Below, piece after piece: positions 5,198 to 26,677 of a stretch of 64,000 nucleotides of DNA; the first letter of the stretch is position 1, and every line of letters starts with the position of its first letter. Origin of the DNA: Planctomycetaceae bacterium (GTDB lineage Bacteria > Planctomycetota > Planctomycetia > Planctomycetales > Planctomycetaceae). The position numbers and the translations under genes are program-made. The DNA lies in the NCBI GenBank assembly GCA_035949535.1, contig DASZIA010000650.1, forward strand, positions 45,548 through 109,547, given 5' to 3'. Under the pieces are notes generated by a model. That model did no database searches. It worked only from the letters and a program-made list of their open reading frames with translations, and was not told the origin of the DNA.

Positions 5198-5201
5198 GCC
5201 G

Positions 5202-6203
5202 ATGGCCGAATCACCACGCTGCGACATAAACGACATTCCGTTGCCGAACACCCGCCGGTTGTCGAATCTCGACGGTTATCTCAACGGACCGGTCAGGGAC
5301 CTGATCGCGGAGCCGACCGTCCCGATCCCGCCCGAGGTGGCCGAGCGGCATCGGATCTACGCCCTGTTGCTAATGGCGATCGCGCGCTGGTACTGGAACC
5401 CGAACAAACGCGGCCGGCTCGGCGTCTACCCCTTGAACCCGTCGCTGGCGGCGGGCGACATCGGCAACTACCTCGACAAGGACTATTTGGGGCACAACAT
5501 CGGCGGCCTGGCCGTCGATGCCGATGGGCGCATCATCGACTTCGATTTCAATCACAACGAGATCTTCGACAGTTCGGCCGAACACGCCGAGGCCCGCCTG
5601 GTGCGGCGGGTGTTTTCACTCGTGCAGGTGGAAGACACCTGGAACGTAAACGCCGCGCGGATTCCGCTCAGGCGGGGCAGCCTGATGCCTGACGTGACGA
5701 TCTACACGACGCTCGAGTCGTGCTCCCAGTGCTCGGGCGTGATGGCGCTTGCCGCGGTCAAACAGGTGGTCTACCTGCAGCGCGACCCCGGCATGTTTCA
5801 CATCGGCAATATTCTTTGGCGACTCACCGAGAAAACGGACCTGCAGGCGCCGCTGCCGATTTCGGGAGATCGAATCGGCCTGCCCTTTTTTCGGATGCTG
5901 AACGACCGGTACGACGCGTTCGCCGACCAGCAGAAATCGGGCAAGGGGTCGCCGTTCTTTTGTCCCCCGCATTCTCATGAGGAATATTCACCGTCCGTCA
6001 CGTCGTTTTTGTGCACCAACAGCGCCTATAGCGTCTTCAAAGACGGCGAGAGTGCCTTCGATGCCTTGAGTAAGCAACCGCTGAAATACGCCGGCTACAA
6101 ACCCTCTCCGACGAACTTGACGAACGCCAAATGCCTAGAAGAGGCCGTTCGGTTCCGCTGCTACGCGACGAGCAAAGGGCGGCGCGGAACGCCGCACAAA
6201 TAG
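5202..6203 (+). CDS. cytidine/deoxycytidylate-deaminase-fold protein
   Basis: ORF track gives 5142..6203. I moved the start to ATG 5202, 4 nt after the GMC stop. It contains HAEARLV, then about 40 residues, then TTLESCSQCSGVMALAAVKQVVYLQRDPG. This matches the H-A-E and CxxC zinc signature of the CDA/TadA fold. About 140 residues of unknown N-terminal region precede it. Confidence 0.65.
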   Translation: MAESPRCDINDIPLPNTRRLSNLDGYLNGPVRDLIAEPTVPIPPEVAERHRIYALLLMAIARWYWNPNKRGRLGVYPLNPSLAAGDIGNYLDKDYLGHNIGGLAVDADGRIIDFDFNHNEIFDSSAEHAEARLVRRVFSLVQVEDTWNVNAARIPLRRGSLMPDVTIYTTLESCSQCSGVMALAAVKQVVYLQRDPGMFHIGNILWRLTEKTDLQAPLPISGDRIGLPFFRMLNDRYDAFADQQKSGKGSPFFCPPHSHEEYSPSVTSFLCTNSAYSVFKDGESAFDALSKQPLKYAGYKPSPTNLTNAKCLEEAVRFRCYATSKGRRGTPHK

Positions 6204-9906: not shown

Positions 9907-10140
9907 GGCGGAGGATTCGCCCGCGGGTACGCAGTCCATGTCGGCAGGCCAACTTTGTTCCGCGATATGCAGGCTAGACATAAGTGAAGAATGGGCAAGA
10001 AAAAGGGCGCCAAAGGTGCGAAGCAAACGTCCAGGCCGGGGAAAAGACCACGACGCGCGGGCGGCAATCGGCGCCGACAAGCAAGAGCCACCCGACCCAT
10101 TGAGCGTCGAACCACATCGTCCATCGAAGGAGTTTCATCC

Positions 10141-13119
10141 ATGAGTCCGCAGGCCCTTACACTCCCGTTCTGGCAGGTGCAATTCGATGAGACCGGTCAA
10201 CTGGTCGATCCTCCGGCCGTGGACACGGTTCTCCAGGCGCTGCGAAGTGAGGCACTGACGCATCTATTCATCTTCTCCCACGGGTGGAATAACTCCCCGG
10301 CCGATGCCAGAAGCCTCTATGACCGGTTCTTCGGCGCCATGTCCGCCCTGCTTCCCGATCGCCAGGCGGGCGTCAACAGTGGAACGCTTGGGATCTATTG
10401 GCCCTCGATGCGCTGGATTGACGAGGAACTACCGAGCGCGGATGAAGGTGGTCCGGCTGCTGTCTCTACTGCGTTGTCACCGAGCGCTTCAAGTGCGAGT
10501 GCCCAGGTTCTTGCGCTCAAGGCGGTCTATTCGACGCCGCAGCAACGCGCTGCGATCGACGCGTTGGCGGACATGCTGCAGTCGCGACCACGCGATCCGC
10601 TGGCACTCCAGCAGTTCCAGCACTATATGCAGCTGTTGACAACGACCCCGGAATCAGGTTTTCACCCGGAAGATAACGGCGAGCGCAACCTCTTAAGCGG
10701 GTCTCCGCAGGAGGTCTTTCAGCGATTCGCCCTGGTGACGCCGCGTTCCGTTGACCAAGGCGGGGTCGCTGGAATTGGGGACCTTGTTGACCGGATTTGG
10801 GACGGAGCGAAGGAAGCGCTCCGGCAGGCTACTTATTGGGAAATGAAGAAGCGTGCAGGCGTGGTCGGCCAGCAAGGTCTGGGGCTTCTAATTGCCCGCA
10901 TTCACCAGGCGCTGCCCTCGATTCGCGTTCATTTGCTTGGTCATAGTTTCGGGGCGCGCCTCGTTTCCTATTCGCTGGCTGGGTTGCCGGCCGCACTGAC
11001 GGGTTCAGCGTCACCCATCAAGTCGGTCACTTTGCTCCAGGGAGCATTCTCGCACTTTGCCTTTGCGAGCAGTCTGCCGTTTGATCCGTCGAATGGCGGC
11101 GGATTAGCCGGGATGCAGGCGCGCGTGGACGGCCCGATCGGCGTCACGCATACCCCGTGGGACACGGCTCTTGGAACCTACTACCCTTTGGCGTCGATGG
11201 CCGCTAACGATGCGACATCTGCGTTTGAGGACCTTCTGTTTCGTTGGAACGCGATGGGGCATGACGGAGCCCAGTCGGTCAATGCCAACGCAATCGGCGT
11301 CGGTCCAGTGGGAACAGATTACGCAGCATCAACCCGCGGCAGCCAGTTCACGAATTTTGATGCTAACGCTGTCATCCGTTTGGGCGGCCCGCCGTCCGGA
11401 GCGCATAGCGACATCGTTCACCCCGAAATCGCCTGGATCGTTCTTTCCGCTTCGCATGTCGCGGATCAGTCAGCCAATGTCAGCGGATCTGCCACTCAGG
11501 CAGCGGCTGGTTCCCCGCAAGGAGGCGCGGCGAGCCTCGCTCCCGTTGTTGAGACCACGGCGGAGCCACAACGGCAGGAAACATCTAGGTCATCATTTGA
11601 ACCAACGGAACCGCCGCTGATCCGCAACACAACAGTGTCCCTCGCTTTTAATATTCCGCAGGAGGATACCAGGCGGGCAAAAGCGGGCCTAAGGGCTGAT
11701 AACACGTCACCCTGCTCCGTGATGATTGAGCTGAACTTGCACCATCGCTTAGGGCTCGAGGGCGCCAAGGATCGCTTCCGCGCGCTATGGAAGACCCTGC
11801 CGCCGGCTGTGTCGCAAAGAGGATGGGTCGAGATTTCAGATACCTACATACGTTGTGATCTCAGCGTGGACGATGTCCGGATGCTTGCACTGCGCGACGA
11901 GCAAGAAGCCAAAGGAGATGAGAGCGCACACAGCATTTATCAAATCTGGCCTGACTTCCCCGTCCATCCACAGATTGATCAATCCGTCTCAACCATTAAG
12001 GGGGACGCGGCCCGGCGCTCGTACGATGCGACGGGAGCCAGCATCACGTGGGCCGTCATCGACACGGGGATCGACGCCTCCCATCCGCACTTTGCGACCT
12101 ATGACACGCTGGGAGGCGATGTTGCCCAGCTTCATTGCGACTTTACGATGCCAGACACGCCGGTCCCACCACGCATCATCTCCGCGCTAAGGGACACCTA
12201 CGGGCATGGTTCACACGTCTCTGGAATCATCGCCGGCGGACTCGTTGGAGGGGTTCCTGGCAAAACGCCGCCGCCCTATTTTGTCGCGGAATCAGTGCAA
12301 ACCCCGGGTGGACTTTCCAGTGTACAAGAGCGGCGAGGAGTCGATCCGTTACGTCTCACAGGGGTTGCCCCCCGGTGCAAGCTGGTCAGTTTGCGAATCC
12401 AGGGGGACGACGGACAGAATCTTTCATCAAACGTGATTCGTGCGCTGCAATACGTGCGAAAGGATCTCAACGGAAATGGCAAGCTCCTCAGGGTCCACGG
12501 CGTGAATCTGAGCCTCGGGTACGAGTTTGATGCACATTGGTTCGCCTGCGGGCAGAGTCCGATTTGCGTCGAAGTGAATCGACTCGTTCGCTCGGGCGTT
12601 GTCGTGGTTGTCGCGGCTGGAAATACCGGATATGGGACGCTCACCGCAGAACAGCGCCCTGGGACGAGGACCGGGATGGCGTTGACGATCAATGATCCCG
12701 GAAACGCCGATTTGGCCATCACGGTGGGATCAACACACCGTGACAGACCGCACACCTATGGCATCTCCTACTTTTCGTCAAAAGGCCCTACCGGCGACGG
12801 GCGGATAAAACCGGATCTCGTTGCGCCCGGAGAACGCATTACTTCGTGTGCCGCCGGCCGCAATCTGGACAAAATCGGGCCACTCATGGCGGGTAAGCCG
12901 CCGAATACGGCGTGCTACGTGGATGACAGCGGCACGAGCATGGCCGCACCTCACGTGTCGGGAGCGATTGCAGCCTTCCTTTCCATTCGCCGGGAATTCA
13001 TCGGCCAGCCCGAGAGAGTTAAAGAAATCTGCCTCGCGAACGCCACGCCTTTGGGACGTGAGCGGTACTTCGAAGGAAGTGGTCTCTTCGATCTGATGCG
13101 CATGATTCAGTCCGTTTAA
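10141..13119 (+). CDS. fusion protein: N-terminal alpha/beta hydrolase (DUF900-like) and C-terminal S8 subtilisin-family peptidase
   Basis: ORF track gives 9991..13119. I prefer ATG 10141, preceded by GAAGGAG at 10126-10132. The N-terminal half has LFIFSHGWNNSPADA..GIYWPS and HLLGHSFGARLV (GxSxG). The C-terminal half has the S8 triad motifs WAVIDTGIDASHPHF, HGSHVSGIIAG and SGTSMAAPHVSGAIAAF. Confidence 0.8.
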   Translation: MSPQALTLPFWQVQFDETGQLVDPPAVDTVLQALRSEALTHLFIFSHGWNNSPADARSLYDRFFGAMSALLPDRQAGVNSGTLGIYWPSMRWIDEELPSADEGGPAAVSTALSPSASSASAQVLALKAVYSTPQQRAAIDALADMLQSRPRDPLALQQFQHYMQLLTTTPESGFHPEDNGERNLLSGSPQEVFQRFALVTPRSVDQGGVAGIGDLVDRIWDGAKEALRQATYWEMKKRAGVVGQQGLGLLIARIHQALPSIRVHLLGHSFGARLVSYSLAGLPAALTGSASPIKSVTLLQGAFSHFAFASSLPFDPSNGGGLAGMQARVDGPIGVTHTPWDTALGTYYPLASMAANDATSAFEDLLFRWNAMGHDGAQSVNANAIGVGPVGTDYAASTRGSQFTNFDANAVIRLGGPPSGAHSDIVHPEIAWIVLSASHVADQSANVSGSATQAAAGSPQGGAASLAPVVETTAEPQRQETSRSSFEPTEPPLIRNTTVSLAFNIPQEDTRRAKAGLRADNTSPCSVMIELNLHHRLGLEGAKDRFRALWKTLPPAVSQRGWVEISDTYIRCDLSVDDVRMLALRDEQEAKGDESAHSIYQIWPDFPVHPQIDQSVSTIKGDAARRSYDATGASITWAVIDTGIDASHPHFATYDTLGGDVAQLHCDFTMPDTPVPPRIISALRDTYGHGSHVSGIIAGGLVGGVPGKTPPPYFVAESVQTPGGLSSVQERRGVDPLRLTGVAPRCKLVSLRIQGDDGQNLSSNVIRALQYVRKDLNGNGKLLRVHGVNLSLGYEFDAHWFACGQSPICVEVNRLVRSGVVVVVAAGNTGYGTLTAEQRPGTRTGMALTINDPGNADLAITVGSTHRDRPHTYGISYFSSKGPTGDGRIKPDLVAPGERITSCAAGRNLDKIGPLMAGKPPNTACYVDDSGTSMAAPHVSGAIAAFLSIRREFIGQPERVKEICLANATPLGRERYFEGSGLFDLMRMIQSV

Positions 13120-13254: not shown

Positions 13255-14373
13255 ATGGCACGCTCCTCTCGACTCCGCGTAATGATTTCGAGCAGGTGCA
13301 ACGACCTTTTCCCTGCGAAAGGCGGCACCACTACTCTCACAGACATCCGCAAGAAGCTTAAGCAGCAAGTCGAGTTGGTCAGTCCGTTTGACAAGCAGCT
13401 ATTTGAGGTGTGGATCAACGAAGAAACCCCGCCAACAGGAGGAAGCTGGAGCAGCTGGGACGTTTGTCTCAACGCTGTTAAGGACTGCGACATTCTGCTT
13501 GCCCTGTCAAACGGCAATGCCGGCTGGGCCAAGAGCGCTGGAGATATCGGCATTTGCCACGCCGAATTAATGACCGGCCTGTCCCAGGCCCCCGGGAAGG
13601 TGTGGCTTATATCGCTGGGCAACGTCCCGATCGATTCTTCCGAGCAAGGCGAGCGCAATAGAAGATTCCAGGAATTCGTTGCCCTTCAGAACCTCTTTCG
13701 CGGTGCCGAGGTTAAGACGATTGCGGAATTAGAGCAGCGCGTCAAAGAGGCGTTGAATGAAGCTCTGTTGACGCTTGTTCAGCGAGGCGTGCGCGAGTCA
13801 ACGAAAGGGCGCTACTACAGCGGCCAGGCTCTGGATTGGACTCGCCTCAACTTCGCCAATCGGCAGTGTGAGATGCTGAAAGTCCTTCGCGAAGCCGTGC
13901 TACAGCATCCCAGCTCTGCTGAGGACAGTGGCAACGTGTTCATAAGCCTTGGCAGCGCTGAGGTACTCTTCGTGCTGCACGCGATACCTGCAGCATTCGG
14001 GGTTCCCGCCGCAAGAGAGCTGGTAGGACAGCCCTTCCTCCAAGACCACACGCTTCACGGCCTGTTCGTCCGCCGGCGCGTGGGCCCAATGCATGTGATC
14101 GCCTGCCATCGGTCAGCTACTGAGGCACAGGCGACAAAGCTCCTCGGGTTTCCTGATGCAACGGTCGTAAACGCTCCGTTCGGGATTTATGTGGCAGACA
14201 ACGTCCAAAAGGTCCAGTTTGCGTTTGTTTGCAATTGCCGCGACGATGCCACAACTCGCCACGGCGTGCAGCGATTCTTCGATTGGCTCGAGCAGACCGG
14301 CGAAGGGGCTCTTCTGGCGTCGCGCGCGGCGTCGCGAGCCAGGATTGTTAAAGCGATAGCCAAGGAGACCTGA
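13255..14373 (+). CDS. DUF4062-like (nucleoside deoxyribosyltransferase/TIR-like fold) N-terminal domain protein
   Basis: GGAAGGAG lies upstream. The N-terminal LRVMISSRCNDLF..IRKKLKQQVE..FEVWINE..CLNAVKDCDILLALSNGNAGW follows the DUF4062 pattern as I remember it (FISS..D.., E, C.D..v.i.g..yG). The remaining 260 aa or so are unassigned. Confidence 0.55.
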   Translation: MARSSRLRVMISSRCNDLFPAKGGTTTLTDIRKKLKQQVELVSPFDKQLFEVWINEETPPTGGSWSSWDVCLNAVKDCDILLALSNGNAGWAKSAGDIGICHAELMTGLSQAPGKVWLISLGNVPIDSSEQGERNRRFQEFVALQNLFRGAEVKTIAELEQRVKEALNEALLTLVQRGVRESTKGRYYSGQALDWTRLNFANRQCEMLKVLREAVLQHPSSAEDSGNVFISLGSAEVLFVLHAIPAAFGVPAARELVGQPFLQDHTLHGLFVRRRVGPMHVIACHRSATEAQATKLLGFPDATVVNAPFGIYVADNVQKVQFAFVCNCRDDATTRHGVQRFFDWLEQTGEGALLASRAASRARIVKAIAKET

Positions 14374-16303: not shown

Positions 16304-17809
16304 CTAGAAGTTATCCTGCGCGTACTTGACTGCGGCGGCCGCGTTGATCAAACCCCAACCAGTGGCTTTGTCGAAGCCCGGCACAGCCGGCTCGTTAAAC
16401 CGTTGGGGAAAGCTATGGCCGACCACCACGTCCGTTGCGGTTTTGGAGAGGGCCTCGATGACCTTTGCCGGCTCCAAGCCAGGCTTGGCGCTCAAGATGA
16501 GTCCCGACGCTCCCGCCACTTGGGGCGCAGCCGCCGACGTTCCTGAGAAGAGCGCCCACCCGTCGGTGGCGGTCGTGCCGTCCCCAGCTTCACCGCTGTC
16601 GAACGCACTTTCCTCTTGGTCCAGCTGGCAGCCTGGTTGCACGGGCAACATCAGGTACTGCGCTCGGGGCTGCATTCCTACGAGTCCGCAGACTGTTGGT
16701 ACGACGACACCGCCAAACCATGGGCTGGCGTATCCGCTAGCGTAGTCCGACGCTTGGAGATGCCCGACAGCGTCTACGAAGGCTCCGCCAGCGGCAAGCA
16801 CACCGGTAATTTGGGGTTCGATCGACAGCTGACCGTTGCCGGCCGAGAAGATCACAAGGATGCCTTTGTCGATGGCATCCTGAACCTCAAGAGCAAACGA
16901 AAGATCGCTTGGGTCGGGCTCGCTGCCGGCCGGAATTGGATAGGGCAGCTCGTAGTCGCCGCCCCAAGAATTCGTCATGATCTGTGGTGCTAAGGCTTTG
17001 CCCTTCAAAAATGCGGCTACCACGCCGACGAACTTCCCCGCATTGTCCGTGCCACGAACCGGCTGCAAGGTGGCACCTGGCGCCATTGCGAAAATGTTCG
17101 CAGATTCACCGGTGCCGTGCCCAATTGGATCCTTGCTCGGATCGGTGCCTGGGATCGCCACAAGTGGCGTGTTGACGTTATAGCCATTGGCCGTGAAATA
17201 GGGATGGCGATACCAACCGGAATCTGGCATCACGATGGTGACACCGTCACCACGGATTCCTTGTTGATGGGCGTGAGTCGCGTTCAGGAGCGTGGCCACG
17301 TCATTTGGAAGTTGGAGGTGGTATTTCGGAGAACTGAGCGGGATCGGGGACGGAAAGATCGCGTGATGCTGGCGTGGGCGCTCCAGTACGACGCCATCAA
17401 TTTTCAGCGACCGAGACTGGACCATCCCAACGCCGAACGCTTCCGGTTGACCGTGGCCAACGATGTCCAAGCAGGTAATGTATTCTCGGACCCCTTCCGT
17501 GGTGCTCATTAACGTTTCCATCGGCTTAACGGTGCCGCCCGTCAGCGATTCATACGCGCCCGATGCTCCTCGTACCGACAAACCCAAGTCACTCTCTGCA
17601 AGAATCTCGAATCCCGACTTTTCCAAATGAGTCCTGACCGAGTCAATATCACTCCGCTTGGCATGATAGGCCTTGGCAGTGCGGTGCAACTTCTTGGTAT
17701 TCTTGGCGCCGAACACCGACTCCTTTCCCTGCACGGAAACGTACCCGACAATCTTATCGGGAACTGGATTATCCGACTTCATGAGCGCGGGCAATCCAAA
17801 GTTTGCCAT
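16304..17809 (-). CDS. S8 subtilisin-family serine peptidase with N-terminal pro-domain
   Basis: Triad motifs seen: VTIVMPDSGWY, HGTGESANIFAMAPGA, NSWGG, SGTSAAAPQVAGASGLIL. The N-terminal 100 aa or so (DIDSVRTHLEKSGFEILAESDLGLSVRGASGAYESLTGG) look like an activation or inhibitor pro-domain. Confidence 0.85.
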   Translation of the reverse strand: MANFGLPALMKSDNPVPDKIVGYVSVQGKESVFGAKNTKKLHRTAKAYHAKRSDIDSVRTHLEKSGFEILAESDLGLSVRGASGAYESLTGGTVKPMETLMSTTEGVREYITCLDIVGHGQPEAFGVGMVQSRSLKIDGVVLERPRQHHAIFPSPIPLSSPKYHLQLPNDVATLLNATHAHQQGIRGDGVTIVMPDSGWYRHPYFTANGYNVNTPLVAIPGTDPSKDPIGHGTGESANIFAMAPGATLQPVRGTDNAGKFVGVVAAFLKGKALAPQIMTNSWGGDYELPYPIPAGSEPDPSDLSFALEVQDAIDKGILVIFSAGNGQLSIEPQITGVLAAGGAFVDAVGHLQASDYASGYASPWFGGVVVPTVCGLVGMQPRAQYLMLPVQPGCQLDQEESAFDSGEAGDGTTATDGWALFSGTSAAAPQVAGASGLILSAKPGLEPAKVIEALSKTATDVVVGHSFPQRFNEPAVPGFDKATGWGLINAAAAVKYAQDNF

Positions 17810-19649: not shown

Positions 19650-19958
19650 ATGCTAAACCTCGAACACGGCATCGACTCGATGACGAATTTCAAACGTCAA
19701 ACCGCCGAATACCTGGAGCGGCTGCACAAGACCGGCGAGCCGGTCGTCCTCACAGTGAACGGCAAGGCTCAGGTGGTCGTGCAGGACGCAGCCGCCTATC
19801 AGATGCTGCTCGATGCCGCGGCGAAGGCGGAACGCGAGGAAACGGTGGCGGCGATTCGCGAGGGCCTGGCCGACGCCAAGGCCGGCCGCACCAAGCCAGC
19901 GAGGGCGGCGCTCAAAGCGCTCGCCAAGAAATACGGCATCGCCACGCCGGACAAGTAG
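19650..19958 (+). CDS. Phd/YefM-family antitoxin
   Basis: MTNFKRQTAEYLERLHKTGEPVVLTVNGKAQVVVQDAAAYQMLLD is the canonical Phd/YefM core. The stop lies 1 nt before the toxin start. Confidence 0.85.
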   Translation: MLNLEHGIDSMTNFKRQTAEYLERLHKTGEPVVLTVNGKAQVVVQDAAAYQMLLDAAAKAEREETVAAIREGLADAKAGRTKPARAALKALAKKYGIATPDK

Positions 19959-19959
19959 C

Positions 19960-20340
19960 GTGAAATATCGTGTGCGACTCACCGCCAAAGCCGAGGCGGA
20001 TGTGGACCGGGTTCTCCGCTGGTTTCACGAGGAGCGCGCGACGGCCGCCGGTGATCGTTGGTTCTCGCGGCTGATGGCCAAGATCGATACGCTCGAGGCG
20101 CACCCGGCACGCTGCGCTGTCGCGGCCGAATCCGAAGACCTAGGAGTCGAAATCCGCGAATTGCTGGTTGGAAAGCGCCACGGTGTCTATCGAATTCTGT
20201 TTCAGATCGAAGGGCGGACGGTTCAAATACTGCGAGTCTGGCACGGTGCGCGGGATCGCGTCTCACCGGAGGACCTCTGGACGTCAACGCACCGGCGTTT
20301 TCGAGGCATTGACCAATTGCCGCCGTTAAGACTGGGCTGA
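19960..20340 (+). CDS. ParE/RelE-family toxin
   Basis: This is the frame of ORF 19813..20340, with the start at GTG 19960. VKYRVRLTAKAEADVDRVLRWF..HPARCAVAAES..IRELLVGKRHGVYRILFQIEGRTVQILRVWHGARD matches the ParE/RelE pattern. Confidence 0.8.
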   Translation: MKYRVRLTAKAEADVDRVLRWFHEERATAAGDRWFSRLMAKIDTLEAHPARCAVAAESEDLGVEIRELLVGKRHGVYRILFQIEGRTVQILRVWHGARDRVSPEDLWTSTHRRFRGIDQLPPLRLG

Positions 20341-20894: not shown

Positions 20895-21425
20895 TCATTT
20901 ACGCCGAAAGGAGTTCTTCAAAGAGCCGGGTCCCGCAACGGCACGATTCGCTCGCATAAGCCGCTTGCACGCATCCAGTACGGCCCACGGAATCTCCTGC
21001 AGCGCGTCGGCAAGCTGAACGAAGTCAATGAAGGCATCTGGTTTCAACAACGCCCATATGCGGTCATCAAGTTGCTTCTGTGCTTCAGCGCCGCTCTCAT
21101 CCACGTCGAAACCATCCATCCAAAAGATCGCATCGTTCCAGAGAATAAAGTGACTTTGGCAGCCGGTGTCTCTCCAAACGGAGGGAAAGAGAGTAAAACC
21201 CTTGGGAGACTGATAAATTCTCCACGCCTTGGCAGTTCGGGGATCGAGGTTAAGCGTGATGACTTCTCCGCAGCCGTCTGGGCAGCGCATTACTGCGGAC
21301 CGCAATGTGCCACGCTTAACGATCGCGAGATCGCCAGGTTGTGTAACGAGCCCAATGGCGTCGCTATGAGAAGGAACAATCCCTTTCATTCGAGAACGAC
21401 GGGGACGGTTTTCGTAAGACGTCAT
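20895..21425 (-). CDS. DUF6527-like Cys/His protein (last gene of the Ubl-conjugation operon)
   Basis: MRCPDGCGEVITLNLDP..FTLFPSVWRDTGCQSHFILWNDAIFW fits my memory of the DUF6527 pattern (CP.GCG..i.lnl .. PS.. C.SHF.i..G.i.W). Its start overlaps the upstream stop as ATGA (21422-21425). Confidence 0.7.
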   Translation of the reverse strand: MTSYENRPRRSRMKGIVPSHSDAIGLVTQPGDLAIVKRGTLRSAVMRCPDGCGEVITLNLDPRTAKAWRIYQSPKGFTLFPSVWRDTGCQSHFILWNDAIFWMDGFDVDESGAEAQKQLDDRIWALLKPDAFIDFVQLADALQEIPWAVLDACKRLMRANRAVAGPGSLKNSFRRK

Positions 21426-22972
21426 GCAGCTTCCTCATGCGAAGCAATTGCGACCAACAAGCGGTAGGCGGACCAATAAGCGTAGCTACGGACTACTGCG
21501 TCGGGGGCGTCGATCTGTATCTTTGCTTCATCCTCAGGAAACATGGCCATTCGCAGCATGTACGCGGCCAGAACATAGCCGTACGCCTTTTCGTCGAGCT
21601 CGATATAATATGCCATTAATCGCAGCTGGCGGCAGGCACTCCACATCCAAGTGTGCAGACACGGCTGTTCCTGGAGCGGCGGCACGATAGAGAACTCTCC
21701 GGCCTTGAACGTGAATAAAGCGTCGATATGCCGTCGCCATTCCTTAAATCGACTTGAGTCAAGGTATCGACCGTCATCCTTCTCATTCCAGAGAGTATTT
21801 GCTTCGAGGTCGAAGCAAATCGCAATCTCGAGGGACGCAAGGTCTGCAACCAATGGACCGATGGTTGACTTGTAAAAGTCAATCATCACGGCCTCGCCAT
21901 TTTTGACACGTACGTTTTGGGTGTTGAGATCGCCGTGCACCGGTCCACGACGATACAAGTGCTTGCTCGACTCATCGAGCATACGCGTCAGCTCGGGTCC
22001 TGACAGTTTGGCCCCAAAGGGCTTGGCGGCTCTTATATAGGGCGCCTTGATTTGTGCGGGGTCCAAAATGGTTGGGAGGATGTCCGCAAGAGCGATACGT
22101 TCATCGCGGCGAAACGCCTGCTGGCGCCACCCTCTAAGAGCATCGTCAAACAATGAATGAATGATTGCTCGCGCGCCGTAGGGCTGCAAAAGGTCTGATA
22201 GAGACACGGAATCATCGACAAAGTCCCCCACCAAGATACCATCGGTCGAACCCAGCAGGCAGCGCTTAAGCTCACAGTTCGGTCTTTGGCTGAATGGGAT
22301 ATATCGGGTTACGAATCTCTCGTAAGCGTCGTACTCTTGCAGGATACGTTTGCTTCGATCAAGTTTCGCAAAATATGGAAGCGGATACGGCGCTGCCTCG
22401 CCCTCAGGAAACTCAGCATAGACCACAAGTACGCGCGCGCCTGACAATCCTTTAGTGAGCGGCTTAATCGTGATTGCCTTACAGTCGCTGAATGCCCGCT
22501 TCAGCAAAAAAAGATCGCTTGCATTCGTCGGCACCTCGCCCTTGATTTCCAGATCGGGGTTAAGTGGCGGGCCGGCAGGATGCCGTGCCGCCAGTTCAGC
22601 AAGCTCGTATCCCGGCTTTCTAAAAGAGAATTGTTTGATTGGCCTCGGAAAGTCGACGAATCTTGTGGTGACTTCAGGAAAATCAAGAATATGACTTTGG
22701 AGCAGTTTGTCTTCACCCTTCTCATTCGCATGGAGAACAACAAGCAAGCCATGGTCGGCTGCCTTTGACGCCCAGCTTTTAACGAGACCGATTGACCGAC
22801 CCTTGTGCTTACTATCGAAGCTGAATACGACGCATCGTGAAACCGACAAATCTCGATCGGAGAGTGGAGGGTTGGTTACGGTGAGGGTCAGTCGCCGGCG
22901 TGTGAACTCGGTGAGGATGGTCTTCGACGGCGCGCGGCCCAGCCAAAGGACCTGTGTGCGTTCGATGGTCAT
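21422..22972 (-). CDS. protein-kinase-like / aminoglycoside-phosphotransferase-fold protein with N-terminal alpha/beta domain
   Basis: ORF track gives 21422..23002. I prefer ATG 22972, which makes an ATGA overlap with the upstream stop. Kinase-fold landmarks seen: LTKGLSGARVLVVY (Gly loop), PYFAKLD (Lys), ILQEYDAYERF (helix C Glu), HGDLNTQNVRV (catalytic loop), VMIDFYKS (DFG-equivalent). Confidence 0.8.
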   Translation of the reverse strand: MTIERTQVLWLGRAPSKTILTEFTRRRLTLTVTNPPLSDRDLSVSRCVVFSFDSKHKGRSIGLVKSWASKAADHGLLVVLHANEKGEDKLLQSHILDFPEVTTRFVDFPRPIKQFSFRKPGYELAELAARHPAGPPLNPDLEIKGEVPTNASDLFLLKRAFSDCKAITIKPLTKGLSGARVLVVYAEFPEGEAAPYPLPYFAKLDRSKRILQEYDAYERFVTRYIPFSQRPNCELKRCLLGSTDGILVGDFVDDSVSLSDLLQPYGARAIIHSLFDDALRGWRQQAFRRDERIALADILPTILDPAQIKAPYIRAAKPFGAKLSGPELTRMLDESSKHLYRRGPVHGDLNTQNVRVKNGEAVMIDFYKSTIGPLVADLASLEIAICFDLEANTLWNEKDDGRYLDSSRFKEWRRHIDALFTFKAGEFSIVPPLQEQPCLHTWMWSACRQLRLMAYYIELDEKAYGYVLAAYMLRMAMFPEDEAKIQIDAPDAVVRSYAYWSAYRLLVAIASHEEAA

Positions 22973-24309
22973 TGGCGGCGCTGCCTTCCAGGCAAAGGCC
23001 ATTTGTTTCCGAGGCCTAACGCGCCCGAGCGAGAGCAGACTATGCAGGTGGGGTCAGCCCGGAGGGTTGCGGAACGGACGACGCCGACAATCCCATTGTA
23101 ATACTGCAGGCGCGACTCACCTGGGACGGGCGTAAAGGCGGTCATGAACATTGTGACGGCAAGTGAAGCCATGGTGCTATTCAAAGATATTACTGCAGGT
23201 TGTGGCTCGTTGTAGCCCGTTATATACGGATCAGCCGCTCGTTGGATGGCTGATTGCAATTCTCGGCGGACGGCGTCAGGATCAATGACGCCGCCGCACA
23301 CGAGGCAAGGCAGCCCCGGCGCGACCATTTGAACGCGCCCGGAAATATGCGTTATTACGCCCTGCTGGGCCACAATGCCCACGCCTAAGTCGATGAGAGG
23401 AACATAGTATTGGTATGCGAGCTGATTCAGCATTGCTCGACTGGCGTGAGAATCGGTGCATCCAAAGACGGCATCCATATCTGCCAGGGATTGCGCAACG
23501 TCGATGTCAGTTACGTCACGGCACTTGGCTGTTATTGAGGCCTCTGGGTTTATCGAGTGGATGAGCCGAGTTGCGACCGCGGTCTTACCAGTTCCAACGT
23601 CGCCAGGCATCGACCCAACAAGGCGATTCAAATTGGTTTCGTCTACGACGTCAGGATCAACGAGCGTGAACGCCGCAACTCCCAAATGAGCAAGCTGTTC
23701 AGCGACAACAGAACCTGTACCTCCAAGACCGACGATTGCGACGCGAGCACCCTGGACGGCCGCTTGACCCTTCTCGCCGAAGGCGCGGAGTTGGCGGTCC
23801 CAACGTTCGTCTAGACTAATGTTTGCGGACGGATCAAAAAGGAGATCCACCTTGGGGCCGACTTGGACGACCGTTAAAGACTCGGACGATGCAAGGCGGC
23901 GTGCCGCGCATCCATCTGGACCGATAACCAAAGCCGCATGCGGGACGTCGGGTACACGTCTGGATAGGAATTCGACGAGTCGTGTCTCCCCATCGTCGTC
24001 TACCGGGGAGAACTTAGGAGTGCCCTCAGCAAAGGGATGAGAGTGTACGAATATCACAGACAGATTTTCCTGCCGGGCTCTCTGCACAAGTGGAACAAAA
24101 AAGTCCGGGCGAAGTTGTGCTCTGGTCGTCGTCCGCACGTCATACGCCCTCTCGGGGGCGGGATGAATTTCCCGCACGAGCAAGGTCGGGCGTGTGCTGT
24201 CCGGAAATGGGGGGCCGGCGAGAAGGATCGCGCACGTTTCTTCCTCGGAGAGGAGCAGAGAACGCGCCATATCACTGTAAGTGGCGCCTGCGAACGCGAT
24301 GCGCATCAT
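22969..24309 (-). CDS. JAB/MPN metalloprotease fused to an E1-like (ThiF/MoeB/UBA) adenylyltransferase
   Basis: N-terminal part: EETCAILLAG and IFVHSHPFAEGTPKFSPVDDDGE (the JAMM H.H..S..D pattern). C-terminal part: ARVAIVGLGGTGSVVAEQLAHLGV..TLVDPDVVDETNLNRL, VFGCTDSHASRAMLN, and two CxxC pairs (PCLVCGG, CIVCS). Confidence 0.9.
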   Translation of the reverse strand: MMRIAFAGATYSDMARSLLLSEEETCAILLAGPPFPDSTRPTLLVREIHPAPERAYDVRTTTRAQLRPDFFVPLVQRARQENLSVIFVHSHPFAEGTPKFSPVDDDGETRLVEFLSRRVPDVPHAALVIGPDGCAARRLASSESLTVVQVGPKVDLLFDPSANISLDERWDRQLRAFGEKGQAAVQGARVAIVGLGGTGSVVAEQLAHLGVAAFTLVDPDVVDETNLNRLVGSMPGDVGTGKTAVATRLIHSINPEASITAKCRDVTDIDVAQSLADMDAVFGCTDSHASRAMLNQLAYQYYVPLIDLGVGIVAQQGVITHISGRVQMVAPGLPCLVCGGVIDPDAVRRELQSAIQRAADPYITGYNEPQPAVISLNSTMASLAVTMFMTAFTPVPGESRLQYYNGIVGVVRSATLRADPTCIVCSRSGALGLGNKWPLPGRQRRQ

Positions 24310-24686
24310 CGAAGTTCCTTAAGGCGTTGTTCACACACTTTCGCATAGGTGACGAGATTGTTGCGGCTGGGGTTCCATCCCTGGACGTGCCACGAGAACC
24401 ATAGGCCCGGCGCATTGACCTCGGGAATCGCCTGGAAATTGGTTGCTTGGGGTTGCCGACTAGGAGCAAGGCGCAAATCGTTATCGGCCCAGAAGCAGTC
24501 GGGCGCGGCAAACGGATAACCAACTGGGGCGACAAAGCGTATGGATGTAGTCGCTTTGTTCCAGCCATCTGGGAGCCGCACATTCTTCAGCTCTATCAAA
24601 ACCGCACCGCTTGGCAATGTGCTGGCTTCGGCGCCCTGAGGATAAACCTGGCGCAGTTCTTCCAGTTGCCGATCCAATATGTTCAT
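24306..24686 (-). CDS. prokaryotic E2 (UBC-like) protein
   Basis: 126 aa. FVAPVGYPFAAPDCFWAD holds a single conserved-looking Cys in the position expected for bacterial Prok-E2 families. There is an ATGA overlap with the E1 gene and a TAATG overlap with the Ubl gene. Confidence 0.75.
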   Translation of the reverse strand: MNILDRQLEELRQVYPQGAEASTLPSGAVLIELKNVRLPDGWNKATTSIRFVAPVGYPFAAPDCFWADNDLRLAPSRQPQATNFQAIPEVNAPGLWFSWHVQGWNPSRNNLVTYAKVCEQRLKELR

Positions 24687-25003
24687 TATTGACCGAACGT
24701 TGCAGGAGGCACGGTATAGAAGTGACAGACAGGGTGCACATTCAAGTCTACGGAGTCATTGTCGGTTATAACTTTATCGGGCTGACCGCCACGGCCCTCA
24801 AGTACTAATTGGTAGGCCGGGTTGAAGTCCGGAATGCGGGCCTTGATTTGGGCACCCGTCAGCGCCGAGTCATCTGTGGTGTATTCGTTTCCGTCGACAA
24901 AATAGTGGTACTCCTTTTTGTGGTGGTGGTGTTCGTGCTCATTTTTGTGGTGCTCCGTTTCAGAGTGACCATTGTGGGTATCTTCAGTCATGTTTAGCTC
25001 CAT
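24686..25003 (-). CDS. ubiquitin-like beta-grasp protein (multiubiquitin-type domain, single copy) with His-rich N-terminal extension
   Basis: YHYFVDGNEYTTDDSALTGAQIKARIPDFNPAYQLVLEGRGGQPDKVITDNDSVDLNVHPVCHFYTVPPATFGQ fits the multiubiquitin pattern. The N-terminal HNGHSETEHHKNEHEHHHHKKEYH is His-rich. The alternative start ATG 24991 has GGAG 7 nt upstream. Confidence 0.75.
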   Translation of the reverse strand: MELNMTEDTHNGHSETEHHKNEHEHHHHKKEYHYFVDGNEYTTDDSALTGAQIKARIPDFNPAYQLVLEGRGGQPDKVITDNDSVDLNVHPVCHFYTVPPATFGQ

Positions 25004-26540
25004 GTGTTTGCGCGTAATATTATGGAATATAGCATAGACAAAGTGTCAGTGCATTCCAATTCTGGACAGCAATGTTGTCGTGGCGTGGCAGGGGGGAAAG
25101 CCAACGGCCAGAGGCGATTGCATGGGATTCCATATTTTTGAGATCCTCCAAATTGTCACAAGTCGCGAGCAGTAATCGGAACTCGAGGGCACTGTCCCAA
25201 AGGCTGGCCTTGAATCGGGAGACCCGCTGGTTGAGTCAGAAATTGGCCAACCTCGGCTCGTTCGTTGTCTTTCAGCCGTGGCCAGGTGTCAGCCCGGTAG
25301 GGCGATGGACTTCCCTACTAGTGCCAAACTTCCCTCCGTGTGCGCTTTATCGAACGGGACACGCGGACAGCCATGAACCGATTGTCCACGGATTCTACGC
25401 GGCAGAAGAAGCGTCGGCAAGCAGAAGCTGTTGCGAGGCAAGGGGTTTCGCTTTAGCCGAGAAATGAGGACTGATGGGATTCGGAGGTCGAAGCGGGGAT
25501 TTCAGAGCTTGCTAGTCGGCAGCGAGTGGGCACTGCGTCGCCATCCGGCAGCAATCAACTGGGCCAGGATCTTGTGGGCGACGTAGCCCCGCCGTGTTCG
25601 AGCTTCGTTAAATACTCTGCAACAGTTCCTCAATCCCTATAACGGCACGAGTTGGACCAACCACTCGAACGCCATGAGGCCGTCCACAGGATGCGTCAAC
25701 GCGTACACGTACACCTCGGCCGGCATGTAGACCGACGCCAAAGTCAAAATCGGCGACCCGCCCTGCCCCAACACGCTGATCAAGTACCACTGCCAGCCTT
25801 CGTCGTTGAACCCAACGACAGGAGCGTGCGGTGAATCCGCGATGACGGCTAACCCAGGCCGTAGTCTTCGATGGCCATGTTGAATTGGCGGGACGGTTTG
25901 ACGAAGACGCGCCGAACACAAAACTGTCTTGGCAAATCGCGCGCCCGCGTGCGGATCGCTTTTGACACGGCTGAATTATCGAGGTTCGGCAGTCGGTCCA
26001 ACGGCGAAAAAAGATCGCGCCACCGCATCGCGCGGACTCATTGGCGGCGGGGCGATTCGATCGGCCGCCAGGTCGCGTTGCCGCGCGGGTTCTGCCTCCA
26101 TCGAGTTCACCGCGCGCTTGGCAATCGGATTGACCGATTGATTTGCTTTGTTTGATCCGCAATTGGGGTCAATTTGATGAGGGCAAATCGGAAAACGCGG
26201 AATGCCCTGCTGGGAACCGGCAGCGTTGTGCGCAACAGGGCCCGATGCAGCTGCCGCGGTCAATTTGGGCGGCACTGACGGCCTTCAGAGAATTGCTGTA
26301 GGCCTGGAGAAGCTCGCGGACCCTTCGACCAAAGCGAGCGAAAACGAGGCGAAATCTGGCTGCCGACCGAGGCCGGCGCACTTTCGACTCAGTGGTTGTT
26401 GTTGATTTGTTGGGTCCGCCGTGGCAGAATTGCGGCAACCGTCAGGCCAGTGCGCTTCAGCGCCCCACCATCTCGACTTGGCGTCGATCGTCGATTCGCT
26501 TTGTCCGGCCGGTAGACACCGTGCCCGTCACGAACCGGGT

Positions 26541-26563
26541 GAAATAGCCTGTTTAGGTTATTG
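26541..26563. repeat. 23-nt imperfect palindrome GAAATAGCCTGTTTAGGTTATTG, copy 2
   Basis: Matches the reverse complement of 18566-18588 at 22 of 23 positions. It lies about 115 nt upstream of the 26678 start. Confidence 0.85.
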
Positions 26564-26677
26564 CGGCCCAGTTAGCCGCGTGTGATGCTGCCTCGGGTCG
26601 AATTGGTAAACCAAAACACCGATCGACTGCTTGCCCAGACTTTTACCAAGTTTTTCCAAGGGAGGCGCCATAGGCCC

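What the first reader, a model, noticed from the sequence alone, without database searches (positions are those of the whole stretch)
21422..22972. Catalytically complete kinase-fold protein embedded in the Ubl operon
The 516-aa protein keeps every landmark of an active protein-kinase or APH fold:
- a Gly-rich loop (GLSGARV);
- the Lys in FAKL;
- the helix-C Glu (QEYDAYE);
- the HGDLNTQN catalytic loop;
- the IDF metal-binding motif.

An unassigned alpha/beta domain of about 110 aa precedes it (VLWLGRAPS..VVFSFDS..LLVVLHAN), which could be a receiver- or sensor-like module. Both of its gene boundaries are ATGA overlaps, with the E1-JAB gene and with the DUF6527-like gene. To my knowledge a kinase is not part of the core described for bacterial E1-E2-Ubl systems. 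Its substrate could be the Ubl, a target protein, a nucleotide or a small molecule. That is an open question.
Basis: partly seen in the sequence, partly recalled or inferred. Interest (0 to 1): 0.7.

Follow-up and report, generated by a model that had tools for sequence, protein, structure and literature searches.

The report
Kinase built into bacterial ubiquitin-like operon
A bacterial ubiquitin-like protein-tagging operon (a "Bub" operon) carries a fifth gene, an apparently active kinase, and that kinase family was found only inside one branch of these operons, which suggests phosphorylation and ubiquitin-like tagging are linked in bacteria in a way not yet described.

Summary
The gene lies on the minus strand (22972..21422, 516 aa). 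It overlaps the JAB-E1 gene upstream and the DUF6527/BubE gene downstream by ATGA.

K203, E213, H346, D348, N353 and D365 are invariant in 187 of 187 relatives. An AlphaFold2 model (pLDDT 89.7) is an APH/choline-kinase-type fold, not a Hanks-type kinase. It is preceded by a flavodoxin-like domain of about 135 aa with no family assignment.

The surrounding genes form a Type I "Bub" (6E.1/DUF6527) ubiquitination-like operon, a system described in 2024. Neither Bub paper nor the supplement searched mentions a kinase.

The kinase is not a passenger:
- All 10 context look-ups and all 17 scan loci with enough flanking DNA put it in a Bub operon, in 30 of 31 loci between E1 and BubE. All 13 plasmid hits have BubE next to it.
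- One contig encodes an in-frame E1-kinase fusion.
- E1s of kinase-bearing operons are 46-51% identical to the window E1, against 34% or less for other Bub E1s on plasmids.
- The family has at least 536 clusters at 50% identity.

The substrate is unknown. My best inference is a pathway protein or the conjugation target. This is a new variant of a known kind, of moderate to high interest.

The parts
24686..25003 (-). Ubl (BubA-like). 105 aa with a single beta-grasp domain, a His/Lys-rich N-terminal tail and the C-terminus ...VPPATFG-Q.
   Evidence: Pfam Multi_ubiq, 2.6e-6. The VPPATFG tail plus 0-4 extra residues is conserved across kinase-bearing loci.
24306..24686 (-). E2-like protein (BubB-like), 126 aa. 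It carries the S-x-H motif (WFSWH) and PDCFW.
   Evidence: Pfam Prok-E2_E, 1.4e-7. WFSWH and the core DCFW of PDCFW are invariant in 19 kinase-bearing operons. The S-x-H pair is the catalytic pair reported for Bub E2s.
22969..24309 (-). JAB peptidase fused to an E1 adenylation domain (BubCD-like), 446 aa.
   Evidence: Pfam ThiF 2.6e-39 and weak Prok-JAB. The JAMM motif E..HxHP..FSxxD and the crossover-loop Tyr (DPYIxG) are invariant in 19 kinase-bearing and 3 kinase-less E1s.
22568..22972 (-). N-terminal domain of the kinase protein (residues 1 to about 135). Five-stranded alpha/beta, flavodoxin-like topology, no family assignment.
   Evidence: AlphaFold2 models. Foldseek against PDB gives no hit at E <= 1e-3, and the best is the GacS D1 receiver at 1.8e-3 with TM about 0.5. 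No Pfam hit. R5, W10, G12 and R26 are nearly invariant.
21422..22549 (-). APH/ELK-type kinase domain (residues about 142-516) with a C-terminal helical subdomain.
   Evidence: Pfam TCAD9 and APH. Foldseek against PDB. Catalytic residues are invariant.
22430..22450 (-). Gly-rich loop GLSGARV (residues 175-181).
   Evidence: Read from the sequence. G175 is kept in 183 of 187 and S177 is S or T in 177 of 187.
22364..22366 (-). Codon for K203, the ATP-anchoring Lys in FAKL.
   Evidence: 187 of 187.
21914..21937 (-). Catalytic loop HGDLNTQN (residues 346-353), the Brenner motif HxDxxxxN.
   Evidence: H346, D348 and N353 are each 187 of 187.
21875..21883 (-). IDF (residues 364-366), the metal-binding Asp equivalent to DFG.
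   Evidence: D365 is 187 of 187. It is followed by the APH-type ...D377-L-A motif, kept in 186 of 187.
20895..21425 (-). DUF6527/BubE serine peptidase-like protein, 176 aa. It has a C-terminal helical extension of about 70 aa.
   Evidence: Pfam DUF6527, 5e-16. PSVWRxxGCxSH supplies the Ser, the Cys at +7 and the His at +10, as in the published BubE catalytic dyad and zinc site. The extension is conserved in this clade. It is absent from the three kinase-less BubEs examined, which are 95-131 aa.

Best explanation
The 516-aa protein is an active ATP-dependent phosphotransferase of the APH/eukaryotic-like-kinase fold, a distant member of Pfam TCAD9. It is a dedicated fifth subunit of a distinct clade of Type I Bub (6E.1/DUF6527) ubiquitination-like operons.

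It is translated together with the JAB-E1 and BubE proteins and most likely works bound to the E1. [quoted passage not shown] Candidates within the pathway are the Ubl, the E1 catalytic Tyr, the E2 catalytic Ser and BubE. Phosphorylation would thereby gate or direct Ubl conjugation.

The fast-evolving N-terminal flavodoxin-like domain and C-terminal helical subdomain would carry partner or substrate recognition.

Shown:
- the fold;
- intact and invariant catalytic residues;
- strict operon linkage;
- one E1-kinase fusion;
- a separate E1 clade for kinase-bearing operons.

Inferred:
- that it is catalytically active;
- that it binds E1;
- that the substrate is a protein rather than a small molecule.
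For: **Fold and family**
- Pfam TCAD9 scores 63.3 bits against a cut-off of 40, and APH gives 4.6e-8. All 33 aligned members hit TCAD9.
- The AlphaFold2 model has pLDDT 89.7 and pTM 0.87.
- Foldseek top hits are APH(3')-Ia, APH(4)-Ia, choline kinase, MTR kinase, homoserine kinase, and TvaE solved in complex with TvaLP.

**Activity is under selection**
K203, E213, H346, D348, N353 and D365 are invariant in 187 of 187 sequences that go down to about 25% identity.

**Linkage**
- All 3 genome loci, all 14 metagenome loci with flank, and all 10 context look-ups lie in Multi_ubiq / Prok-E2_E / ThiF / kinase / BubE operons. The look-ups were P0044, P0049, P0054, P0167, P0196, P0150, P0100 and P0194, which brought in loci at 29-36% identity and profile-only hits.
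- 13 of 13 plasmid records with the kinase have DUF6527 next to it. They include cultured Mesorhizobium, Rhizobium, Bradyrhizobium and Deinococcus.
- ATGA overlaps on both sides indicate translational coupling.

**Physical association**
P0167 (917 aa) is an in-frame E1-kinase fusion. The E1 C-terminus runs straight into strand 1 of the kinase N-domain. This is not a one-base frameshift.

**Long co-evolution**
E1s of kinase-bearing operons are 46-51% identical to the window E1. All other plasmid Bub E1s are 34% or less.

**Size of the family**
536 clusters at 50% identity have E <= 1e-30. Most of the top 150 match the profile end to end, so they carry both the N-domain and the kinase.

**Recognition role**
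- The kinase is the most divergent operon member, at 31-41% identity against 43-56% for E1 in the distant loci.
- Within the kinase, the N-domain (26%) and the C-terminal helical subdomain (28%) diverge most. The ATP-binding N-lobe is at 47%.

**Plausible targets**
Bub chemistry runs through hydroxyl nucleophiles: a Tyr on E1, a Ser on E2 and a Ser on BubE. All three are conserved here. Kinase-accessible switch points therefore exist.
Against: - No substrate was identified. No phosphatase or phospho-binding (FHA-like) partner recurs in the loci.
- The nearest solved structures are mostly small-molecule kinases. Kaur et al. 2020 suggested low-molecular-weight substrates for the APH-like kinases of ternary conflict systems.
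- I found no Ser/Thr/Tyr specific to kinase-bearing Ubls. The Thr in PPATFG has a counterpart in kinase-less Ubls, which end in TTEG.
- One E1 of this clade, in Roseomonas mucosa, has no kinase. That copy is truncated by IS21.
- The fusion evidence rests on a single metagenomic contig.
- No multimer model could be run.
Confidence: 0.55

Rival explanations
1. It is a small-molecule kinase, as APH, choline kinase, MTR kinase and homoserine kinase are. It would phosphorylate a metabolite, nucleotide-derived signal or toxin. It would feed a chemical signal into the Bub system, or remove one, rather than modify a protein.
For: - The Foldseek top hits are almost all small-molecule kinases.
- The large C-terminal helical subdomain is typical of APH/choline-kinase enzymes.
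- Several conserved Arg residues (R159, R230, R237, R283, R451) could bind an anionic small ligand.
- Kaur et al. 2020 suggested low-molecular-weight substrates for the APH-like kinases in conflict systems.
Against: - No biosynthetic or transport gene for a small molecule recurs in the loci.
- The fusion to E1 and one-to-one operon membership fit a protein complex better.
- PDB composition biases Foldseek hits towards APHs.
- From my own knowledge, not tested here: APH-fold kinases with peptide or protein substrates exist, such as YihE and RIO. TvaE appears among the Foldseek hits solved in complex with TvaLP, which I take to be its leader peptide.
Confidence: 0.2
2. It is an ATP-binding or ATP-hydrolysing switch or scaffold, as RIO and Bud32 are. 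Nucleotide-dependent conformation would control assembly of the E1/E2/BubE complex or recruit targets in an E3-like way. No phosphate would be transferred to a substrate.
For: - Profile matches to RIO1, RIO2 and Bud32 lie at the catalytic loop.
- Bub operons have no recognised E3.
- The kinase is the fastest-evolving component, as expected of a specificity factor.
Against: The full phosphotransfer set, including the catalytic base D348 and N353, is invariant in 187 of 187. That goes beyond what nucleotide binding alone needs. However, from my own knowledge, RIO and Bud32 also keep these residues.
Confidence: 0.2
3. It is an unrelated gene that landed in the operon, for example an aminoglycoside-resistance-type phosphotransferase, with no functional tie to the Ubl system.
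For: RefSeq annotates the homologs simply as 'phosphotransferase'. APH is the closest solved fold.
Against: - The same position in the operon recurs across Planctomycetota, Armatimonadota, Alphaproteobacteria and Deinococcus, down to about 30% identity.
- Both gene boundaries are ATGA overlaps.
- An E1 fusion exists.
- Kinase-bearing operons have their own E1 clade.
- None of the 10 context look-ups fell outside a Bub operon.
Confidence: 0.03

Closest known systems
Type I Bub (6E.1 / DUF6527) bacterial ubiquitination-like operons (Ye, Gong, Chambers, Corbett, bioRxiv 10.1101/2024.11.21.623953; Gong et al., bioRxiv 10.1101/2024.11.21.623966)
   Same: - Same gene set: a Multi_ubiq Ubl, a Prok-E2_E E2 with the S-x-H motif, a JAB-E1 fusion with the invariant crossover-loop Tyr, and a DUF6527/BubE with the Ser/His dyad.
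- Same regulators in relatives: BrxR/WYL, or an M78 peptidase with an HTH protein.
- Same setting in defence-island or mobile-element contexts.
   Different: - A 490-580 aa kinase gene lies between E1 and BubE.
- The papers and the supplements of the mechanistic paper never mention a kinase.
- In their table of about 140 Type I operons, only one entry (Bradyrhizobium tropiciagri) has exactly one unlisted gene between E1 and DUF6527.
- E1s of this clade are 34% identical or less to the other plasmid Bub E1s.
- The Ubl has a single domain ending in PPATFG instead of TTEG. BubE has an extra C-terminal domain of about 70 aa.
Pfam TCAD9 (PF19974), the kinase-like domain associated with vWA-MoxR-VMAP ternary conflict systems (Kaur, Burroughs, Iyer, Aravind, eLife 2020, PMC7159879)
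   Same: - Scores above the Pfam gathering cut-off in all 33 members tested.
- Kinase-like domain used in a conflict or defence-type system.
- TCAD9 is listed among protein-kinase-like families.
   Different: - Only the catalytic core aligns. The best stretch covers profile positions 276-349 of 429.
- No vWA, MoxR or VMAP gene appears in any of the loci examined.
- The partners here are E1, E2, Ubl and BubE.
Aminoglycoside / choline / MTR / homoserine kinases (APH-type eukaryotic-like kinases; PDB 4fev, 4ej7, 3w0n, 3fi8, 2pyw, 2ppq)
   Same: - Bilobal fold.
- Brenner motif HGDLxxxN.
- IDF followed by an ...DLA motif.
- Helical C-terminal subdomain.
   Different: - 12-17% sequence identity, and a TM-score of only about 0.5-0.6 normalised to the target.
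- An extra N-terminal flavodoxin-like domain.
- No resistance or metabolic gene context.
PINK1 phosphorylation of ubiquitin and Parkin in eukaryotes (from my own knowledge; a functional analogy only)
   Same: A kinase functionally coupled to a ubiquitin-type conjugation machinery.
   Different: - No homology beyond the kinase superfamily.
- No evidence here that the Ubl is the substrate.
- PINK1 is a Hanks-type kinase, and this protein is APH-type.

Membership tests
Protein-kinase-like superfamily, APH/ELK branch (Pfam PF01636, clan CL0016) | Bilobal kinase fold | tested here: met
   AlphaFold2 model with pLDDT 89.7. Foldseek against PDB gives 153 hits at E <= 1e-3. The top 50 shown are almost all APH, choline-kinase, MTR-kinase and homoserine-kinase structures.
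Protein-kinase-like superfamily, APH/ELK branch (Pfam PF01636, clan CL0016) | Gly-rich loop, beta-3 Lys and helix-C Glu | tested here: met
   G175 is kept in 183 of 187. K203 and E213 are each 187 of 187.
Protein-kinase-like superfamily, APH/ELK branch (Pfam PF01636, clan CL0016) | Catalytic loop HxDxxxxN and metal-binding Asp | tested here: met
   H346, D348, N353 and D365 are each 187 of 187.
Protein-kinase-like superfamily, APH/ELK branch (Pfam PF01636, clan CL0016) | Phosphotransfer activity | not testable with these tools
   Needs a biochemical assay.
Pfam TCAD9 (PF19974) | Score above the curated gathering cut-off | tested here: met
   63.3 bits against 40. 33 of 33 members match.
Pfam TCAD9 (PF19974) | Match along the whole profile | tested here: inconclusive
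   Two stretches match. The best covers only profile positions 276-349 of 429.
Pfam TCAD9 (PF19974) | Association with a vWA-MoxR-VMAP ternary system | tested here: not met
   No vWA, MoxR or VMAP family is listed among the neighbours in any locus.
Type I Bub (6E.1/DUF6527) operon | Ubl with a beta-grasp (Multi_ubiq) domain and a C-terminal Gly | tested here: met
   Pfam Multi_ubiq. The VPPATFG tail plus 0-4 residues is conserved.
Type I Bub (6E.1/DUF6527) operon | E2-like protein with catalytic Ser-x-His instead of Cys | tested here: met
   WFSWH is invariant in 19 operons. The motif is as reported.
Type I Bub (6E.1/DUF6527) operon | JAB-E1 fusion with an invariant crossover-loop Tyr | tested here: met
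   The JAMM motif and DPYIxG are invariant in 22 E1s.
Type I Bub (6E.1/DUF6527) operon | DUF6527/BubE with a Ser/His dyad and zinc-binding Cys residues | tested here: met
   Pfam DUF6527, 5e-16. CPxGCG and PSVWRxxGCxSH are conserved.
Type I Bub (6E.1/DUF6527) operon | Ubl-target conjugation through oxyester intermediates | not testable with these tools
   Biochemistry is needed.
Hanks-type Ser/Thr/Tyr protein kinase (PF00069) | Match to the Pkinase profile, with an HRDLKxxN-type loop and an APE activation segment | tested here: not met
   No Pkinase hit at E <= 1. The loop is HGDLNTQN. The closest folds are APH-type.
Response-regulator receiver domain (for the N-terminal domain) | CheY-like fold with conserved acidic pocket and phospho-acceptor Asp | tested here: not met
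   Only weak fold resemblance (E 1.8e-3, TM about 0.5). D53 at the end of strand 3 is not conserved in the wider family. No Pfam hit.

The most novel reading that the evidence does not exclude
The kinase is a phospho-switch on an oxyester-based ubiquitination-like cascade. Either it phosphorylates one of the hydroxyl nucleophiles (the E1 crossover-loop Tyr, the E2 Ser or the BubE Ser), or it phosphorylates the Ubl itself. Conjugation would then be turned on or off, or redirected, in response to a signal read by the variable N-terminal and C-terminal subdomains. This would be the first bacterial case of direct kinase-ubiquitin-like crosstalk, a mechanistic parallel to PINK1 and ubiquitin.
Probability: 0.3. 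Interest if true: 0.8.

Novelty: new variant of a known kind. Interest (0 to 1): 0.62.

Why it matters
Bub operons were shown in 2024 to be real protein-conjugation machines with unusual Tyr/Ser oxyester chemistry. Their biological role, targets and control remain unknown.

A conserved, catalytically intact kinase is hard-wired into one whole clade, with at least 536 clusters at 50% identity across several phyla. It offers a handle on those questions:
- It may mark the target.
- It may gate the cascade.
- It may be the sensor.

It would also extend kinase-ubiquitin crosstalk, so far a eukaryotic theme, to bacteria.

Cultured hosts carrying the five-gene operon exist, which makes this directly testable. 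Examples are Mesorhizobium sp. 131-2-5 plasmid NZ_AP023251 and Bradyrhizobium guangxiense plasmid NZ_CP022220.

Tried and rejected
- **Genome scan, first attempt.** The scan with the wide alignment A1 failed because no stretch was conserved enough. The narrower A2 worked. It uses only two peptide patterns, so '3 loci in 185,579 species' is an undercount, and the plasmid hits in rhizobia were missed.
- **PADLOC.** It has no model for the kinase, Ubl, E2 or BubE. Only generic E1-E2 (Cap2-like) hits appear on the E1.
- **PDB sequence search.** Only weak hits at the catalytic loop, with Rio2 best at 4.5e-4.
- **Receiver-domain reading of the N-domain.** Rejected as family membership.
- **Profile search with the N-domain alone.** It found the domain in no other architecture.
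- **Phospho-acceptor specific to kinase-bearing operons.** The Ubl tail Thr (PPATFG) is matched by TTEG in kinase-less Ubls. The E2 S-x-H and the E1 Tyr are shared by both types. Nothing discriminates.
- **Regulator gene upstream of the window operon.** None was convincing in 25004-26580. The promoter and terminator scan was at chance level.
- **BFVD fold search.** Only generic viral kinases.
- **Burroughs et al. 2011 (PMC5938088).** Not held. Iyer et al. 2006 describes operon type 6e without a kinase.
- **Artefact check on the E1-kinase fusion.** I considered a frameshift artefact at the ATGA overlap. I rejected it because the junction is an in-frame deletion of the E1 tail and the kinase start. 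It is still a single contig.
Full report
**1. What is at the coordinates**

The finding's coordinates hold a real gene on the minus strand. Translating the plus strand gives stops throughout. The minus strand gives an ORF from 23002 or 22972 down to 21422.

The 516-aa form starts at the ATG at 22972. That ATG overlaps the stop of the upstream JAB-E1 gene as ATGA. The kinase stop overlaps the ATG of the downstream DUF6527 gene in the same way. Most homologs begin at the same MT(I/V)ER position, so 516 aa is the likely product.

An identical protein is on record from a Planctomycetaceae metagenome-assembled genome, named 'phosphotransferase'.

**2. The surrounding operon**

Five tightly packed genes lie on the minus strand:
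- 25003-24686: a 105-aa Multi_ubiq Ubl.
- 24686-24306: a Prok-E2_E protein.
- 24309-22969: a JAB-ThiF E1.
- 22972-21422: the kinase.
- 21425-20895: DUF6527.

This is the gene set of the Type I 'Bub' (formerly 6E.1 / DUF6527) operons. Two 2024 preprints showed these to be real conjugation systems. They work through a Tyr oxyester on E1 and a Ser oxyester on E2, with DUF6527/BubE acting as a Ser/His peptidase.

The sequence features that define those proteins are all present here and in relatives:
- the E2 motif WFSWH (S-x-H);
- the BubE motif PSVWRxxGCxSH;
- the JAMM motif;
- the crossover-loop Tyr of E1.

**3. Is it a kinase?**

I built a family alignment of 187 sequences. It combines hits of the first homology search with 50%-identity cluster representatives from an exhaustive profile search. 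In it, K203, E213, H346, D348, N353 and D365 are invariant. D377 and R451 are kept in 186 of 187.

Pfam places the protein in TCAD9 (63.3 bits, cut-off 40) and APH (4.6e-8). RIO1 and Bud32 match weakly at the catalytic loop. All 33 aligned members hit TCAD9.

An AlphaFold2 model built on the alignment is confident, with pLDDT 89.7 and pTM 0.87. Its best PDB neighbours are APH(3')-Ia, APH(4)-Ia, choline kinase, MTR kinase, maltokinase, homoserine kinase and TvaE (in complex with TvaLP). These have E about 1e-6 to 1e-5 and TM about 0.5-0.6 relative to the target.

This is the APH / eukaryotic-like-kinase branch. It is not a Hanks-type kinase and not HipA-like. Sequence-only comparison with the PDB finds nothing beyond the catalytic loop, so no close structure is solved.

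**4. The N-terminal domain**

Residues 1 to about 135 form a five-stranded alpha/beta domain in both models.

Foldseek gives no hit at E <= 1e-3. The best resemblances are flavodoxin-like or CheY-like folds, such as the GacS D1 receiver, TadZ, FrzS, flavodoxins, B12-binding domains and a TIR domain, at TM about 0.5.

The Asp at the end of strand 3 is not conserved in the wider family. Pfam finds nothing. A profile search with this domain alone found it in no other architecture. It remains unassigned.

Its nearly invariant residues are R5, W10, G12 and R26.

**5. Is the kinase tied to the Ubl system?**

Yes, in every locus that had enough flanking DNA.
- All three genome loci found (one uncultured MAG and two Armatimonadota) have the order Ubl-E2-E1-kinase-BubE.
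- So do all metagenome loci with enough flank.
- Context look-ups for eight further proteins all landed in Bub operons. These included proteins at 29-36% identity and profile-only hits.

Three variants are instructive:
- L024 has the order Ubl-E2-E1-BubE followed by a second Ubl and then the kinase. Both Ubls end in a conjugatable PPT(N/M)FG.
- L034 has two BubE genes.
- P0167 is a 917-aa E1-kinase fusion.

At the P0167 fusion junction, the E1 C-terminus (...CMVCSSAGALARG) runs directly into strand 1 of the kinase N-domain (QAILWFGGG). This is an in-frame loss of the E1 tail and the kinase start, not a one-base slip at the ATGA overlap.

Among 72,556 plasmids, 13 carry the kinase, and all 13 have DUF6527 beside it. 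The organisms are Bradyrhizobium, Rhizobium, Mesorhizobium and Deinococcus, so cultured hosts exist.

**6. A distinct clade, not a sporadic insertion**

A tblastn search with the window E1 found 78 plasmids.
- E1s from kinase-bearing operons are 46-51% identical to the window E1.
- Every other listed E1 is 34% or less.

The one E1 in the high band without a kinase is in Roseomonas mucosa. It is truncated by IS21 and is followed directly by BubE.

The clade has other traits:
- A separate single-domain Ubl ending in VPPATFG plus 0-4 residues. The kinase-less Ubls examined end in TTEG.
- A BubE with a conserved helical C-terminal extension of about 70 aa. This is absent from the three kinase-less BubEs examined.

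The exhaustive profile search found 536 clusters at 50% identity with E <= 1e-30. Most of the top 150 match the profile end to end, so the family is large. It is rare in the isolate genomes used for the published catalogue. Of about 140 Type I entries there, only Bradyrhizobium tropiciagri has exactly one unlisted gene between E1 and DUF6527. I could not check what that gene is.

**7. Rates of change**

In the distant loci the kinase is the most diverged of the five proteins. It is at 31-41% identity, against 43-56% for E1, 44-60% for E2, 47-64% for the Ubl and 43-52% for BubE.

Within the kinase, identity to the window protein in the 19 most distant aligned members is:

| Region | Identity |
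|---|---|
| ATP-binding N-lobe | 47% |
| C-lobe core | 37% |
| C-terminal helical subdomain | 28% |
| N-terminal domain | 26% |

. The C-terminal helical subdomain is where APH-type enzymes bind their substrate (my own knowledge). This pattern fits a conserved catalytic engine with changing recognition surfaces. It is also compatible with simply weaker constraint.

**8. How it most likely works**

Shown:
- an APH-fold protein with an invariant catalytic set;
- translational coupling to E1 and BubE;
- one fusion to E1;
- strict co-occurrence;
- a separate E1 clade.

Inferred: it is an active phosphotransferase that sits on the E1 complex. It phosphorylates either a pathway protein or the conjugation target, and so gates or directs conjugation.

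The Bub cascade uses hydroxyl nucleophiles on E1 (Tyr), E2 (Ser) and BubE (Ser). All are conserved here. Each would be blocked by phosphorylation. That makes a phospho-switch an attractive reading, but it is untested.

My probability estimates:

| Claim | Probability |
|---|---|
| It is an active phosphotransferase integral to this Bub clade | about 0.85 |
| Its substrate is a protein | about 0.55 |
| The substrate is specifically a Bub component (novel case) | about 0.3 |
| Rival: small-molecule kinase | 0.2 |
| Rival: nucleotide-driven switch, scaffold or E3-like adaptor without transfer | 0.2 |
| Rival: unrelated passenger gene | 0.03 |

**9. Comparison with what is known**

The operon is a member of Type I Bub by every sequence feature tested.

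The kinase is a formal Pfam TCAD9 member by score. It aligns only over the catalytic core. It lacks the vWA-MoxR-VMAP context that gives TCAD9 its name.

In the held literature no paper contains both 'TCAD9' and 'DUF6527'. The Bub papers never mention a kinase, and a term search of the mechanistic paper's supplements found none either. The 2006 description of operon type 6e lists no kinase. I could not read Burroughs et al. 2011 or any paper outside the library. The statement is therefore 'not described in the literature available here'.

**10. Context in the window**

Neighbouring genes include:
- a Phd/ParE toxin-antitoxin pair;
- two S8 subtilases, one of which matches a PADLOC subtilase model at 1e-47;
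- a DUF4062 protein;
- a MafB19-like deaminase.

This is suggestive of a variable or conflict-gene region but not decisive.

Relatives sit next to QatABC, SIR2, a CBASS phospholipase, RES/Xre toxin-antitoxin genes, integrases and Tn7-like genes. They also carry BrxR/WYL or M78 + HTH regulators. This matches the defence and stress context proposed for Bub.

**11. Verdict**

This is a new variant of a known kind: a kinase-bearing clade of Type I Bub operons. The mechanism is open but directly testable.

Noticed in passing
window 19650-20340 (+): A Phd/YefM antitoxin (19650-19958) and a ParE toxin (within 19813-20340) form a type II toxin-antitoxin pair just downstream of the Bub operon, on the opposite strand.
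   Followed up: partly
window 9991-13119 (+), 13255-14373 (+), 16304-17809 (-): A 1042-aa protein has a C-terminal S8 subtilase domain and matches the PADLOC 'subtilase' model at 1e-47, with weaker IetS matches. A DUF4062 protein and a second S8 subtilase lie nearby. A kinase-less Bub operon in Paracoccus (L033) also has an S8 peptidase next to BubE.
   Followed up: partly
window 5142-6203 (+): A 353-aa ORF has a MafB19-like / cytidine deaminase domain, a toxin-type deaminase family.
   Followed up: no
window 24900-25003 (-): The Ubl has a His/Lys-rich N-terminal tail (..HNGHSETEHHKNEHEHHHHKKEYHYF). Relatives keep a shorter H/K-rich stretch before the beta-grasp domain. It might bind metal. 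Gong et al. report Ca2+-dependent assembly for other Bub Ubls (abstract).
   Followed up: no
window 20895-21120 (-), BubE residues about 103-176: BubE of this clade has a conserved helical C-terminal extension of about 70 aa (motif IAdaL.EiPW.VldAC..L). It has no Pfam match and is absent from the three kinase-less BubEs examined. It could be a docking or DNA-binding module.
   Followed up: partly
window 25004-26580: About 1.5 kb upstream of the Ubl gene has no convincing ORF and no regulator gene. Many relatives have BrxR/WYL or M78 + HTH regulators at this position.
   Followed up: partly
L024 2300-6517; L034 4333-5444: Two operon variants. L024 has a second conjugatable Ubl gene directly before the kinase, after BubE. 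L034 has two tandem BubE paralogs after the kinase.
   Followed up: partly
L030 (Roseomonas mucosa plasmid NZ_CP025190, 189560-191124): An E1 of the kinase-bearing clade (49.7% identity) is truncated at its N-terminus next to an IS21 element. It is followed directly by an unannotated BubE with no kinase. This looks like a decayed or kinase-less derivative.
   Followed up: partly
L029 (Ochrobactrum sp. LM19 plasmid NZ_KM659091, 20923-21363): A BubE of this clade, with the C-terminal extension, stands alone. No E1, E2 or Ubl gene is nearby.
   Followed up: no
window 22973-23002 (-): An in-frame ATG 30 nt upstream would give a 526-aa product whose first 11 codons overlap the end of the E1 gene. 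Two homologs, P0003 and P0009, are called at 526 aa.
   Followed up: yes
E1 crossover loop, window about 23180-23300 (-): E1s of the kinase-bearing clade have a crossover-loop region 6 residues shorter than the three kinase-less E1s aligned. They keep a CLxC motif just before it.
   Followed up: no
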